From: an uncultured Actinomycetota bacterium
GTDB lineage: Bacteria > Actinomycetota > Humimicrobiia > Humimicrobiales > Humimicrobiaceae
Assembly: GCA_964387355.1 (NCBI GenBank)
Contig: CAYLWJ010000107.1
Coordinates: forward strand, 1,669 to 65,668
Reading direction: 5' to 3'
Length of the DNA stretch: 64,000 nucleotides
Positions 10,043 to 12,432 of the stretch are shown here, piece after piece. How positions within the stretch are numbered: position 1 is the stretch's first letter; every line of letters starts with the position of its first letter. The position numbers and the translations under genes were made by a program. Under the pieces are notes generated by a model. The model saw nothing but the letters and a program-made list of their open reading frames with translations. It had not been told where the DNA came from and ran no database searches.

Positions 10043-10435
10043 TTAGCTTCTTTTTGTGTAGAATCTCAAAGCTTTAGAATCTCTCCATAACCTTTCAAGA
10101 TCATAATATGTTCTATATTCTTCAGTAAAAATGTGAACTACAAAATCATTATAATCTATTAGTATCCAGTTTCCCTCAATTAGTCCGCTTACATTTAGAG
10201 GCTTAATGCCAAACTTACTTAGATTTAAGTCAATTTCTTCAGCAATCCTTCTAGTAAGCCTAGTATTGCTTGCGCTAATTATTATAAAATAATCAGTAAT
10301 AATTAAACGCGGACCAACATTTAAAATTTTGATATAGTCAGCTTTTTTTTCGTCTGCAATTTTAGCAACAAATTTTACGGCGTCAACTGTATTTTTTATT
10401 TTTTTAACTATTTGCTTTTTTTCTCTATTTTCTAT
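10043..10435 (-). CDS. rsfS: ribosomal silencing factor RsfS (iojap); start codon uncertain (no in-frame ATG/GTG/TTG)
   Basis: Manual translation gives ...[88 protein letters not shown], a classical RsfS signature, with stop at 10045-10043. It was absent from the ORF track because the frame between the upstream TGA (10447-10445) and the conserved core holds only ATA/ATT candidates. Confidence 0.7.
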   Translation of the reverse strand: [130 protein letters not shown]

Positions 10436-12432
10436 TTTGTATAATCACTCCCTATAATTAAAGTAATGTCTACATTATCTGGATTATTCGATGATTGTGA
10501 TATCGCTCCAACTCCTAAAATTTTCTTAATCTGATCAGCAACAATTTGCACACCTTCTTTTTCAGTATGAATTAATATCTTTGTAACGTTGTAATTAAAG
10601 CTATCAGCATTTTTAGTTTCTTTTACATTAATAACTTTTGCATTTTTATTTAAAGCTTTTTCAATAATACCCTTAACAGTTATAGCTATTCCTTGAGTTC
10701 CTTCCCCATTTAAAATATTTATATCATAGGTTTGGCCTTCAGGTATTTGGGCAGAAGAACCACTCTGAGTGTCTTTCTGCTCAGTAGTTTGACTTTCTAC
10801 AGCTGTACTTTCTGCTTGCTCTTCACTTGTACCGTATGTTTCTGACTCTTGTAGCAGAGCTTTTAGCTGAGCTACACTTTCAGCTGCCTTATCATAATTA
10901 AAATCTTTCCCAATTATAACAACTATATCATTTTTTTGGCTGCTGTTTTCAGATAAAATAATATTTCCAACAAGTATAGCTTTAACAAGAAACTCAGCTG
11001 ACTTTTTTATATTTTCATCTTCAGTTTTGATAATAATTTGAGTTCTTTCATAATTATAATTATCAGCATCCCCTGGAACATCCACTTGATATACAGGATT
11101 GCCATTTGGAAATTTTAATGATTTTAACAAATCAGATGTTTTACCAGCAATACCTTTTGTACCAACTCCATTTAAAACAATTAGACTTGCTGTTTTGTCT
11201 GTTCCTACATCTGTTGCGCTGCTTTCCTGAGTAGCTTCCTCTTTATTAAATATAGTACTGATTCTAGAAATATCAGGAACAAATACTATTGTATTTTCAT
11301 CAAATGGCTCAAATCTTCCATCAAGCCCATAAGTTTTATTATTTTGGCTGCTAAGGCTTGCAAATGTTAATATTACTTCTGATAGTTCTTCTAAATTTAA
11401 ATCTGTTTCAATGTAATCATTAATTATTGAAAGATTTTTTGTTAAATCTCCTTCCTTAGTTCCAATAATCTTTTTTAATATTCCATCAATTAAAATCTTC
11501 TGCATGATAATATCAGATTTTTCTATATCTTCTTTAGTTCCATTAAAATTACTTAAAAAACTTAAAGCAGTTTCACCATTTAAAATATTGTCACCTTCTT
11601 TTAATTTAAAAGATGCATTATCCTGGCCGACAATAGTTATTTCTTTTTCAAGATTAATCTTTATACCTTCAAGCTTATTAACTATATTTAAAACATCAAG
11701 TAAAATATAGTTTTGCACATCCATCCCAATATTGTTTTTTAATGTCAATTTCATTAAATCCATTCCGCCATATTCAACTGTTTTATCAACCGTATCAAGT
11801 CCAAATCCAGGTATTTCAAATATTGTATTAACAGGGATACACAGAGAAATTAGTTCTTCATTCTTTGAATTATAGCTTGAAAATATAACAGTGTTAATTT
11901 CAGGTTCTGTTAGATTATCATTTGCACATGCAAATAAAATATTTATGTCTTTTCCAAGCTTAATATTTCCTGGAACTACAATAGACTCCTCTACTGTATC
12001 AGTTGTAGAAGTCTTAGAAAAATACTTATTTTTTATAAATCTATAACCAAAGACAATACCAATAGCAACTAAAACTAAAATTACCATTATGGCTATAGAA
12101 GAAAAAATCATTTTCCTTTTTCTTTTTTTTGCTTTAATTTTAGCAATCCTTGCACCCTTAATATCTTCTATGCCATACTCATATTCCTCAAAATCTTTTA
12201 ATTCAAAATCTTCATCACTAAAAAAGCTTTCCACCTCTTCTTCTTCAATTTCTTCTCCTTCTAATTTATCACTTTTGCTTTCTTCATCATATTTTTCAGA
12301 ATTCCTTTTGAGAAAATCTTCTAAATTTTCATCATCACTATCATCATACTTTCCATGCTTATAGAATCTTTCATATTTTTCTTCATCATTATTTTTTGAT
12401 TCATCATCTAGTGGCATTTTTAAAACCTCCAC
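10432..12432 (-). CDS. LytR-CpsA-Psr (LCP) family cell-envelope phosphotransferase with an acidic N-terminus, TM anchor, LCP domain and two C-terminal LytR_C domains
   Basis: LCP core LGKDINILFACANDNLTEPEINTVIFSSYN...LCIPVNTIFEIPGFGLDTVDKTVEYGG. Two C-terminal LytR_C-like repeats (LIVLNGVGTKGIAGKTSDLL... and INILNGEGTQGIAITVKG...NVDITLIIGSDYTK). Overlaps yqeK by 29 nt. Confidence 0.85.
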   Translation of the reverse strand: MEVLKMPLDDESKNNDEEKYERFYKHGKYDDSDDENLEDFLKRNSEKYDEESKSDKLEGEEIEEEEVESFFSDEDFELKDFEEYEYGIEDIKGARIAKIKAKKRKRKMIFSSIAIMVILVLVAIGIVFGYRFIKNKYFSKTSTTDTVEESIVVPGNIKLGKDINILFACANDNLTEPEINTVIFSSYNSKNEELISLCIPVNTIFEIPGFGLDTVDKTVEYGGMDLMKLTLKNNIGMDVQNYILLDVLNIVNKLEGIKINLEKEITIVGQDNASFKLKEGDNILNGETALSFLSNFNGTKEDIEKSDIIMQKILIDGILKKIIGTKEGDLTKNLSIINDYIETDLNLEELSEVILTFASLSSQNNKTYGLDGRFEPFDENTIVFVPDISRISTIFNKEEATQESSATDVGTDKTASLIVLNGVGTKGIAGKTSDLLKSLKFPNGNPVYQVDVPGDADNYNYERTQIIIKTEDENIKKSAEFLVKAILVGNIILSENSSQKNDIVVIIGKDFNYDKAAESVAQLKALLQESETYGTSEEQAESTAVESQTTEQKDTQSGSSAQIPEGQTYDINILNGEGTQGIAITVKGIIEKALNKNAKVINVKETKNADSFNYNVTKILIHTEKEGVQIVADQIKKILGVGAISQSSNNPDNVDITLIIGSDYTK

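What the first reader, a model, noticed from the sequence alone, without database searches (positions are those of the whole stretch)
10043..10447. rsfS sits overlapping the LCP gene stop and also lacks a canonical start codon
The RsfS core (...[36 protein letters not shown]) is intact. However, between the upstream in-frame TGA (10447-10445) and the conserved region there is no ATG, GTG or TTG. Candidates are ATA at 10435-10433, which would form ATAG overlapping the LCP TAG stop, or ATA at 10411-10409, or ATT at 10429-10427. Possible explanations are a non-canonical initiator used with translational coupling to the LCP gene, a homopolymer indel (runs of T at 10343-10350 and 10392-10398 are nearby), or an inactivated gene.
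Basis: seen in the sequence. Interest (0 to 1): 0.5.

Follow-up and report, generated by a model that had tools for sequence, protein, structure and literature searches.

The report
rsfS gene starting at AUA
The ribosome-silencing-factor gene here really has no ATG, GTG or TTG start, and comparison with relatives indicates it is a working gene translated from a rare ATA start codon that overlaps the stop codon of the gene in front: a known kind of exception, not an error or a dead gene.

Summary
On the minus strand the rsfS frame is open from 10444 to the TAA at 10045-10043. It has no in-frame ATG, GTG or TTG before codon 125. An independent assembly has the same sequence, so this is not an assembly error. 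One detail is wrong: the "ATT at 10429-27" is really AAT.

The organism is an AT-rich (28.5% GC), uncultivated Actinomycetota bacterium related to Candidatus Humimicrobiia. Some relatives start rsfS at a GTG that overlaps the stop of the upstream LCP gene (TAGTG). Ten diverged lineages, including this one, have lost that GTG; here it is GAA.

- All ten keep ATA overlapping the LCP stop (ATAG).
- All ten keep the frame open from that ATA: 198 codons with 0 in-frame stops, against 22 and 22 in the other frames.
- The protein core is under strong purifying selection.

The best reading is that translation starts at ATA 10435-10433. It would be helped by a GGGAG Shine-Dalgarno 12 nt upstream and by coupling to LCP termination. 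NCBI already annotates a relative from the equivalent ATA.

In passing: rplU (L21) in this window starts at ATT behind a perfect AGGAGG, and four lineages checked at DNA level all share that ATT.

This is a new member of a known kind, of modest interest.

The parts
10043..10435 (-). Proposed rsfS coding sequence. Start ATA 10435-10433, stop TAA 10045-10043, giving a 130-aa product (M)[37 protein letters not shown]...
   Evidence: The frame is open from 10444. Pfam PF02410 matches at E = 3.2e-28. TIGR00090 scores 95.9 bits. The product aligns with M. tuberculosis RsfS (4wcw) from residue 15.
10433..10435 (-). Proposed AUA initiation codon. It shares TA with the LCP stop codon (ATAG, the same geometry as the common ATGA overlap).
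   Evidence: It is the only near-cognate codon between the in-frame TGA and the conserved N-terminal peptide. It is present in all 15 distinct relatives whose LCP gene ends in TK*. The frame is open from it in all ten lineages that lack GTG at codon 2. NCBI protein MBM3706254.1 is annotated from the homologous ATA.
10448..10453 (-). Shine-Dalgarno-like AGGGAG, lying inside the LCP codons for Gly-Ser and 12 nt upstream of the ATA.
   Evidence: The predicted duplex with a generic anti-SD is -8.0 kcal/mol, within the -8 to -12 range of well-defined genes in this window. The other in-frame ATA codons score -2.9 or weaker. GGGAGTGAT is nearly invariant across the clade.
10432..10434 (-). TAG stop codon of the upstream LCP (LytR-CpsA-Psr) gene.
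   Evidence: PF03816 plus PF13399.
10430..10432 (-). GAA, the second codon of rsfS. This position carries the GTG start (TAGTG overlap) in relatives L007, L021, L023 and L090, and GCN in eight others.
10445..10447 (-). In-frame TGA that closes the rsfS frame upstream.
10446..10448 (-). GTG in the third frame. Some relatives use it as the rsfS start (VIIQ...; L019, L020, L173). Here that frame closes at TAG 10427-10425 after 7 codons.
   Evidence: plus reading.
10409..10411 (-). Alternative in-frame ATA, considered less likely.
   Evidence: Weak SD duplex of -2.9 kcal/mol. It is not positionally conserved in relatives.
10397..10399 (-). Second alternative in-frame ATA, considered less likely.
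   Evidence: It did not rank among the three best SD duplexes for this ORF, so it scores weaker than -2.7 kcal/mol. It is not conserved in position.
10432..12417 (-). LCP-family gene. Ribosomes terminating on it are proposed to feed rsfS initiation.
   Evidence: Pfam hits. ATG at 12417 has a GGAGG SD at -10.5 kcal/mol. The same start was called in L001.

Best explanation
rsfS in this genome is a functional gene whose translation starts at the non-canonical codon AUA (10435-10433). That ATA overlaps the TAG stop of the upstream LCP gene, forming ATAG.

The ancestral arrangement in the clade was tight stop/start overlap, with a GTG at or next to the LCP stop. In one sub-lineage the GTG was lost: it became GCN, and then GAA here. 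Initiation then fell to the adjacent near-cognate AUA.

Initiator tRNA is inferred to pair with AUA through a third-position mismatch. Three things are inferred to help:
- a GGGAG Shine-Dalgarno 12 nt upstream;
- an unstructured, A-rich downstream region;
- ribosomes that have just terminated on LCP (translational coupling in the -4 overlap geometry).

The expected result is low-level synthesis of RsfS, a protein that works at low stoichiometry by binding the large ribosomal subunit.

Shown: there is no canonical start; the sequence is reproducible; the gene and its N-terminal tail are under coding constraint starting at the junction.

Inferred: the identity of the initiating codon, the role of coupling, and the expression level.
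For: 1. No in-frame ATG, GTG or TTG before codon 125.
2. An independent assembly (L001) has an identical junction, with 13 SNPs and no gaps over 10.4 kb.
3. Fifteen distinct relatives share ...ACA AAA TAG. Four follow it with TG, making a GTG start. Ten, including this one, have GCN or GAA instead. WIN and L086 have no canonical start before the core. In L010 and L169 the first GTG lies at the start of the core helix; L037 has one three codons upstream of it.
4. In those ten, the stretch from the ATA to the first canonical start or core helix is 198 codons with 0 in-frame stops. The other two frames have 22 and 22. Composition-matched shuffles give 15.4 expected, and 0 of 5000 shuffles reach zero.
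5. In the core, pN is 0.11-0.21 against pS of 0.69-0.87. dN/dS is 0.04-0.11 wherever dS can be estimated.
6. The N-terminal peptide [11 protein letters not shown] is homologous to the VEEIKKxKKQIVKK N-termini of relatives that start at the GTG one codon downstream.
7. The SD duplex is -8.0 kcal/mol for this ATA and -2.9 for the next.
8. NCBI annotates MBM3706254.1 from the homologous ATA.
9. rplU in the same genome starts at ATT, 6 nt after AGGAGG. This is identical in three other assemblies of this organism and conserved in three other species-level lineages. AUH starts therefore work in this lineage.
10. Experimental precedent: AUA and AUU starts mapped in S. aureus reach 10-30% of AUG (PMC13009471); near-cognates in E. 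coli reach 1-2% (bioRxiv 10.1101/063800); E. coli rsfS itself uses the weak UUG (PMC10917681).
Against: - There is no direct evidence of initiation: no ribosome profiling and no N-terminal peptide.
- The ATA is made of the last base of the LCP Lys codon plus the TA of its stop. Its conservation is therefore confounded with constraints on LCP.
- The set of 15 sequences was partly defined by that junction sequence. The independent criterion, LCP ending in TK*, picks out the same set.
- The SD spacing of 12 nt is at the long end of what is seen in this window (4-11 nt).
- Two further in-frame ATA codons (10411, 10399) would also give a protein containing everything that aligns with solved RsfS structures.
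- No experiment known to me shows reinitiation at AUA after termination.
- For this genome alone, the open 21-codon tail is only weakly significant: 9.6% of shuffles have no stop.
Confidence: 0.62

Rival explanations
1. rsfS is functional but starts at another non-canonical codon further downstream: ATA 10411-10409 or ATA 10399-10397. This would give a 122-aa or 118-aa protein without the Lys-rich tail.
For: Both codons are in frame and upstream of everything that aligns with solved RsfS structures. Many relatives are called with very short N-termini such as MDSVKF..., so the tail may be dispensable. Near-cognate efficiency does not depend on position.
Against: The SD duplexes are weak, -2.9 kcal/mol or weaker. 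Neither codon is positionally conserved in relatives. This does not explain why the frame stays open right from the junction in ten lineages, nor why the tail peptide KKQIVKK is retained.
Confidence: 0.17
2. rsfS in this particular genome is a recently silenced gene (start codon lost, no longer translated) whose ORF has not yet decayed.
For: RsfS is dispensable under laboratory conditions in E. coli (my own knowledge). This genome is the extreme case, with no canonical start anywhere before codon 125. For this genome alone the open tail is not statistically compelling. WIN and L001 are too similar to measure recent selection.
Against: The 133-codon ORF is intact at 28.5% GC, where about 8% of random codons are stops (my estimate). 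WIN carries the same residue as every other sequence at all invariant columns of alignment A1. Loss of the GTG is shared with lineages separated by saturated synonymous divergence, and these still have conserved cores. L086 likewise has no canonical start before the core, and L010 and L169 have one only at the start of the core helix, yet all three are conserved. An essential gene, rplU, in the same genome also uses an AUH start.
Confidence: 0.12
3. RsfS is made as a C-terminal extension of LCP by a programmed -1 ribosomal frameshift at A_AAA_TAG. tRNA-Lys slips back one base while the stop codon sits in the A site. The AGGGAG 9 nt upstream would stimulate the slip, as in dnaX.
For: The rsfS frame is -1 relative to LCP, and the sequence ACAAAATAG allows perfect re-pairing of tRNA-Lys. 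AGGGAG lies 9 nt upstream, close to the 10-nt spacing I recall for E. coli dnaX (my own knowledge). The 21 nt GGGAGTGATTWTACAAAATAG are invariant at synonymous sites in 15 relatives. An open frame from the junction is equally predicted by this model.
Against: There is only a four-base slippery run, not an X_XXY_YYZ heptamer. There is no downstream structure (z = -0.22). The LCP protein has a basic stretch and then one membrane helix near residue 110, with its catalytic and LytR_C domains beyond it. By my reading of that layout its C-terminus is outside the cell, whereas RsfS acts on cytoplasmic ribosomes. Relatives with the same junction plus a GTG, or with other junctions that lack any slippery run, clearly make separate proteins.
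Confidence: 0.04
4. Sequencing or assembly error: a homopolymer indel or base miscall hides a canonical start.
For: The region is rich in A-runs (A7 at 10422-10416 and 10405-10399). Deleting one A from the A4 run 10438-10435 would join the third-frame GTG 10448 to the rsfS frame, giving VIIQIENREKK..., which resembles the VIIQI... N-termini of L019 and L020.
Against: An independent assembly from a different run is identical here. The A4-TAG junction is shared by 15 distinct relatives from many studies and sequencing platforms. No ATG, GTG or TTG in any frame reaches the A7 runs, which I checked by reading.
Confidence: 0.02

Closest known systems
Bacterial genes with conserved non-canonical AUH start codons: E. 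coli infC and pcnB (AUU); S. aureus infC, ccpN and citZ (AUA) and cvfC1 (AUU)
   Same: An otherwise normal, conserved gene has AUA or AUU where the start codon should be. It is preceded by a Shine-Dalgarno sequence, and the state is kept across related species. Low initiation efficiency is expected: 1-2% of AUG in E. coli reporters (10.1101/063800) and 10-30% in S. aureus (PMC13009471).
   Different: Here the AUA overlaps the stop codon of the preceding gene, and the SD is only moderate, with 12-nt spacing. The S. aureus cases have extended SD motifs close to the start codon. No experimental mapping exists for this gene. No link to IF3 autoregulation has been shown.
Translational coupling by termination-reinitiation at 4-nt stop/start overlaps (ATGA type; Huber et al. 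2019, PMC6728339; review PMC12548453)
   Same: The genes are co-directional in one operon (nadD-yqeK-LCP-rsfS-leuS). The start and stop codons share two bases, giving the same -4 geometry. Relatives have the canonical versions, GTGA and TAGTG.
   Different: The restart codon is AUA, not AUG, GUG or UUG. In the passages of the review that I searched, I found no mention of restart at a near-cognate codon.
RsfS / YbeB / Iojap ribosome silencing factor (PF02410, TIGR00090)
   Same: The full-length domain matches above the curated cut-offs. The gene sits next to nadD and yqeK, which from my own knowledge is a typical neighbourhood for rsfS. E. coli rsfS also uses a weak start codon, UUG (PMC10917681).
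   Different: There is a Lys-rich N-terminal tail of variable length in this clade. An LCP-family gene sits between yqeK and rsfS. The start codon is non-canonical.
dnaX-type programmed -1 frameshift
   Same: There is an A-run at the end of the upstream frame, an AGGGAG about 9-10 nt upstream, and the downstream frame is -1.
   Different: There is no heptameric slippery site and no downstream stem-loop. A fusion product would be topologically senseless.

Membership tests
RsfS (ribosome silencing factor, PF02410 / TIGR00090) | The sequence matches the family profile above the curated cut-off over its full length. | tested here: met
   PF02410 scores 98.3 bits against 21.6, covering profile positions 3-98 of 98. 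The TIGR00090 equivalog scores 95.9 bits against 56.9, covering 2-99 of 99. The best solved relative is M. tuberculosis RsfS 4wcw at E = 1.4e-19.
RsfS (ribosome silencing factor, PF02410 / TIGR00090) | Binds the large ribosomal subunit and blocks subunit joining. | not testable with these tools
   This is a biochemical property, inferred only from homology.
Gene with a non-canonical AUH start codon (infC / ccpN type) | No in-frame ATG, GTG or TTG upstream of the conserved part of the protein. | tested here: met
   The first canonical codon is at codon 125 of 133.
Gene with a non-canonical AUH start codon (infC / ccpN type) | An in-frame AUA, AUU or AUC preceded by a Shine-Dalgarno sequence at a workable distance. 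| tested here: met
   ATA at 10435-33 with GGGAG 12 nt upstream and a duplex of -8.0 kcal/mol. The spacing is at the long end of the range seen in the window.
Gene with a non-canonical AUH start codon (infC / ccpN type) | The non-canonical codon is conserved in related species. | tested here: inconclusive
   ATA is present in all 15 distinct relatives with this junction. However, it is built from the last LCP codon and stop codon, so its conservation is confounded. Supporting points: the frame is open from it in ten lineages, and codon 2 is Ala in eight of the ten.
Gene with a non-canonical AUH start codon (infC / ccpN type) | Initiation at that codon shown by experiment (start-site profiling, N-terminal peptide or reporter). 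| not testable with these tools
   The organism is uncultivated and no such data are available here.
Translational coupling by stop/start overlap (termination-reinitiation) | Co-directional genes whose stop and start codons overlap by 4 nt or 1 nt. | tested here: met
   ATAG at 10435-10432. Relatives have GTGA and TAGTG at the same place.
Translational coupling by stop/start overlap (termination-reinitiation) | A canonical restart codon (AUG, GUG or UUG). | tested here: not met
   The restart codon would be AUA.
Programmed -1 ribosomal frameshift (dnaX-like) | A slippery heptamer X_XXY_YYZ. | tested here: not met
   Only A_AAA followed by TAG is present.
Programmed -1 ribosomal frameshift (dnaX-like) | A stimulatory downstream RNA structure. 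| tested here: not met
   The MFE is -7.8 kcal/mol with z = -0.22 against shuffles, and nothing folds downstream of the site.
Pseudogene | Relaxed selection: stops, frameshifts, or dN/dS near 1. | tested here: not met
   The ORF is intact. dN/dS is 0.04-0.11 against relatives. WIN matches every invariant column of the alignment. A very recent silencing cannot be excluded.

The most novel reading that the evidence does not exclude
Non-canonical AUH start codons may be a maintained regulatory feature of large-subunit-related genes in this class of uncultivated Actinomycetota. rplU (L21) has a clade-wide conserved AUU behind a perfect SD. rsfS has an AUA that has persisted in many lineages, even though two single-base steps (TAG to TAA to TGA) would create a canonical ATGA overlap. 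If initiation at these codons responds to IF3 or to the free-ribosome pool, as at infC, the cell would tie 50S protein supply and 50S silencing to initiation fidelity.
Probability: 0.12. Interest if true: 0.6.

Novelty: new member of a known kind. Interest (0 to 1): 0.35.

Why it matters
Practically, standard gene callers miss or truncate this gene and rplU, because they accept only ATG, GTG and TTG. No rsfS gene was called in the independent assembly that covers this locus. rplU was either not called, called as a 52-aa fragment, or over-extended. Completeness estimates and pan-genome tables for these MAGs will therefore wrongly report rsfS and L21 as absent or aberrant.

Biologically, it adds natural examples of AUA and AUU initiation outside model organisms. 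One of them is on an essential ribosomal protein gene. It also shows an evolutionarily labile initiation region in which three alternative start sites within about 20 nt are used by different relatives. If the conserved weak starts are regulatory, they would be a new instance of infC-like control. That is not shown here.

Tried and rejected
- **TGA read as sense (codes 4 or 25).** The frame hits TAA at 10477-75 with no start codon in between.
- **Third-frame GTG 10448 followed by a frameshift.** That frame closes at TAG 10427-25 before any long A-run, and I found no plausible +1 site when reading.
- **Transcriptional slippage at the A7 runs.** No ATG, GTG or TTG in any frame leads into them (read).
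- **RNA structure at the junction** (coupling by unfolding, or a frameshift stimulator). None found, z = -0.22.
- **Rfam scan of the window.** Only seven tRNAs. None is an initiator or tRNA-Ile.
- **Metagenome scan.** Added only about nine clade members.
- **Exact look-up of the LCP protein.** Not on record.
- **Exact look-ups of three candidate RsfS N-termini and of L21 for this organism.** Not in the collection.
- **NCBIfam alignment of ProA.** It could not decide between GTG 15254 and ATA 15245 as the proA start.
- **Solved RsfS structures.** These could not discriminate between the three ATA candidates.
- **Literature searches for rplU with AUU, and for rsfS with start codon.** Nothing turned up about this clade.
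Full report
**What is in the sequence**

On the minus strand the LCP-family gene (Pfam LytR_cpsA_psr plus two LytR_C matches) ends ...GGG AGT GAT TAT ACA AAA TAG, with TAG at 10434-10432. One base out of phase, the rsfS frame runs from an in-frame TGA (10447-10445) through TTA TAC AAA ATA GAA AAT AGA GAA AAA AAG CAA ATA GTT AAA AAA ATA AAA AAT ACA GTT GAC GCC GTA AAA TTT and on to TAA at 10045-10043, 133 codons in all.

The product matches Pfam RsfS (E = 3.2e-28, profile 3-98 of 98). It also matches the NCBIfam equivalog TIGR00090 (95.9 bits against a cut-off of 56.9). 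It aligns with M. tuberculosis RsfS (4wcw) from the residues NTVDAVKF onward.

No ATG, GTG or TTG occurs in frame before codon 125, which is why ORF listing does not report the gene. Reading through the TGA does not help: TAA follows at 10477-75 with no start in between.

The observation therefore stands, with corrections:
- The supposed ATT at 10429-27 is AAT.
- There is a third in-frame ATA at 10399-97.
- One of the homopolymer runs is one base shorter than stated.

**Not an artefact**

A Logan assembly from a different sequencing run (L001, SRR7983873) covers the locus. It differs from the window by 13 substitutions and no gaps over 10,377 nt, and it is identical over the LCP-rsfS junction and the rsfS 5' part. 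Its gene calls jump from LCP to leuS, so rsfS was simply not called there either.

**Who it is**

The closest RsfS, LCP and L21 sequences come from uncultivated Actinomycetota MAGs labelled Candidatus Humimicrobiales, Humimicrobiaceae or Hydromicrobium. The window is 28.5% GC. No species representative is closer than about 70-75% RsfS identity.

**What relatives do at this junction**

I collected about 45 clade loci and read the junction in each. The LCP end ...GGGAGTGATTA(T/C)AC... is nearly invariant across the clade. Downstream of it, three different rsfS start arrangements occur within about 20 nt:

- (a) GTG inside the LCP codons for Gly-Ser-Asp (GGGA**GTG**ATT...), giving N-termini VIIQI... 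(L019, L020, L032-35, L173).
- (b) GTG overlapping the LCP stop, as GTGA (L011, L012, L022 and others) or as TAGTG (L007, L021, L023, L090).
- (c) The same ...ACA AAA TAG end as in TAGTG, but followed by GCN (L008, L009, L010, L014, L037, L086, L169, L171) or GAA (this window and its closest relative, L004/L005). The GTG is therefore gone.

In group (c) the downstream canonical starts, where they exist, are scattered:
- L004 has TTG at codon 8 counted from the ATA, and L008 at codon 11.
- L171 has ATG at codon 14; L009, L014 and L037 have GTG at codons 16-17.
- In L010 and L169 the first GTG lies at the start of the core helix.
- L086 and this window have none before the core at all.

The gene callers behind the protein database accordingly produce N-termini that begin at or inside the core, such as VKYVARIAD, LLDTVKF and MDSVKF.

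**Is the gene alive?**

Over 97 core codons, this window differs from other clade members by pN 0.11-0.21, while pS is 0.69-0.87, which is saturated. Where dS can be estimated, dN/dS is 0.04-0.11. The three other lineages with no canonical start upstream of the core helix (L010, L086, L169) are likewise separated by saturated pS yet have conserved cores. WIN carries the same residue as the other 24 sequences at every invariant column of alignment A1. The group as a whole is therefore not a set of pseudogenes. A very recent silencing in this genome alone cannot be excluded, because its only near-identical sibling shows no differences in the gene.

**Where does translation start?**

Four lines of evidence point to the junction.

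1. For the ten group (c) sequences I took the stretch from the codon after the junction ATA to the first canonical start or the core helix. It totals 198 codons with 0 in-frame stops, against 22 and 22 in the other two frames. Composition-matched shuffles give 15.4 expected, and none of 5000 shuffles reached zero. A subset of six more distant lineages gave the same result. The Lys-rich tails are thus kept in frame right from the junction. For this window alone (21 codons) the test is weak, with 9.6% of shuffles stop-free.
2. The tail here ([11 protein letters not shown]) is recognisably the same peptide as the N-termini of relatives that start at the GTG one codon downstream of the ATA (VEEIKKxKKQIVKK).
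3. Between the closing TGA and that peptide, the only near-cognate codon is ATA 10435-33. Codon 2 is Ala in eight of the ten sequences, which from my own knowledge is typical of bacterial N-termini.
4. GGGAG lies 12 nt upstream. The predicted anti-SD duplex is -8.0 kcal/mol, like the well-defined genes of this window (-8 to -12). The other in-frame ATA codons score -2.9 or weaker.

NCBI's pipeline reached the same solution for a relative. Protein MBM3706254.1 ("ribosome silencing factor") equals the L086 ORF read from the homologous ATA, with Met in place of Ile.

**Caveats on the conservation argument**

The ATA consists of the last A of the LCP Lys codon plus the TA of its stop, so it is not free to vary independently.

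In the 15 distinct sequences whose LCP ends in TK*, the last seven LCP codons show no third-position variation. The ten codons before them show 2-4 variants each, despite similar amino-acid conservation. That suggests a nucleotide-level constraint such as a ribosome-binding region. However, my pattern search partly imposed this. The independent criterion (LCP ending in TK*) happens to select the same set.

**How it probably works**

The geometry ATAG is the AUA version of the common ATGA overlap, which is linked to termination-reinitiation coupling (PMC6728339, PMC12548453). The region has no predicted structure (z = -0.22) and is A-rich downstream.

I infer that ribosomes finishing LCP, and/or 30S subunits recruited by GGGAG, initiate at AUA with low efficiency. 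Measured values elsewhere:
- 1-2% of AUG for AUA, AUU, AUC and CUG in E. coli reporters (bioRxiv 10.1101/063800).
- 10-30% for the mapped AUA and AUU starts of S. aureus ccpN, citZ and cvfC1; S. aureus infC also starts at AUA (PMC13009471).
- As good as AUG in an optimised in-vitro context, but sensitive to nutrient limitation and ppGpp (PMC5499595).

A weak start fits rsfS, since the E. coli gene uses UUG (PMC10917681). None of this has been measured for the present gene.

**Rivals**

- A downstream ATA (10411 or 10399) would still give a complete domain. It has no SD and no positional conservation.
- A -1 frameshift at A_AAA_TAG, with AGGGAG 9 nt upstream as in dnaX, fits the invariant junction and the open frame. 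It lacks a heptamer and a downstream structure. It would also attach a cytoplasmic ribosome-binding domain to the end of LCP, which I infer lies outside the cell: a basic stretch and a single membrane helix near residue 110, with the catalytic and LytR_C domains beyond.
- Sequencing error is excluded by the independent assembly and by the shared state in many species.

**Supporting context found in passing**

The L21 gene rplU (Pfam E = 2.9e-31) also lacks a canonical start. The sequence is taaAGGAGGcccaaaATTtacgctgta, that is, a perfect SD, six bases, ATT (20395-20393), and then YAVITSGGKQYKV, where L21 proteins from outside the clade begin MYAV.

- The ATT is identical in three further assemblies of this organism.
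- All clade homologues whose called protein reaches this position, but one (P0145), have Ile there apart from those NCBI annotates with Met; P0133, checked at DNA level, is ATT. Gene callers either over-extend them (reading the SD as Arg-Arg) or truncate them to 83-91 aa.
- Three further species-level lineages checked at DNA level all have GGAGG-N6-ATT.
- NCBI annotates MBE3090232.1 from that ATT.

An essential, highly expressed gene therefore relies on AUU across this clade. This raises the prior that AUA works for rsfS. I found no paper describing this.

**Verdict**

This is a real, reproducible, evolutionarily maintained non-canonical start. It is most likely AUA overlapping the upstream stop, in a functional rsfS gene. 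It belongs to a known class of exceptions, and a public annotation of a relative already anticipates it. Interest is therefore modest. The clade-wide AUU start of rplU is the more notable by-product.

Noticed in passing
window 20081-20407 (minus strand); start ATT 20395-20393, SD AGGAGG 20407-20402: The ribosomal protein L21 gene (rplU) has no canonical start. A perfect AGGAGG is followed after 6 nt by ATT, at the position where L21 proteins from outside the clade have Met1. This is identical in three other assemblies of this organism. GGAGG-N6-ATT is conserved in three other species-level lineages. Nearly all clade homologues whose called protein reaches that position have Ile there. Gene callers miss, truncate or over-extend the gene, whereas NCBI annotates a relative (MBE3090232.1) from the ATT.
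   Followed up: yes
window 13929-15257 (minus strand); GTG 15254-15252, ATA 15245-15243: For proA (glutamate-5-semialdehyde dehydrogenase), the first canonical start GTG sits inside the SD-like AAGGGGTGA. An ATA three codons downstream has the best SD duplex (-10.4 kcal/mol) at about 5-nt spacing. This may be another ATA start. The NCBIfam alignment could not decide.
   Followed up: partly
window 49852-50346 (minus strand): A 164-codon open frame contains no ATG, GTG or TTG at all. It matches only the middle of the AbiEii toxin profile (positions 102-192 of 238, E = 4.6e-05). It is probably a truncated remnant of a type IV toxin-antitoxin toxin gene.
   Followed up: partly
L173:701-1168 and L019/L020 junctions, compared with window 10425-10448: Relatives use three different rsfS start sites within about 20 nt, in two different frames relative to LCP. 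Small indels in the A-rich tail switch the frame. The N-terminal tail ranges from 0 to about 100 residues of Lys-rich low-complexity sequence.
   Followed up: partly
window 7024-9882 (minus strand): LeuS carries a Gln/Glu/Leu-rich low-complexity insertion of roughly 60-70 residues (QQEQLENKEQLRQQVQLKQNQ...EQLEQIEQ) in its C-terminal half, and appears to start at TTG with a weak SD.
   Followed up: no
window 20410-20520 (minus strand), upstream of rplU: The region has imperfect tandem copies of a GGATAATAAA(T/G)ATA-like unit. There was no Rfam hit, and no L21 leader was detected.
   Followed up: no
window-wide: Among long ORFs, TTG is a frequent first canonical start codon (about a quarter) and GTG is rare, as expected at 28.5% GC. 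Seven tRNA genes cluster at 41329-44118.
   Followed up: no
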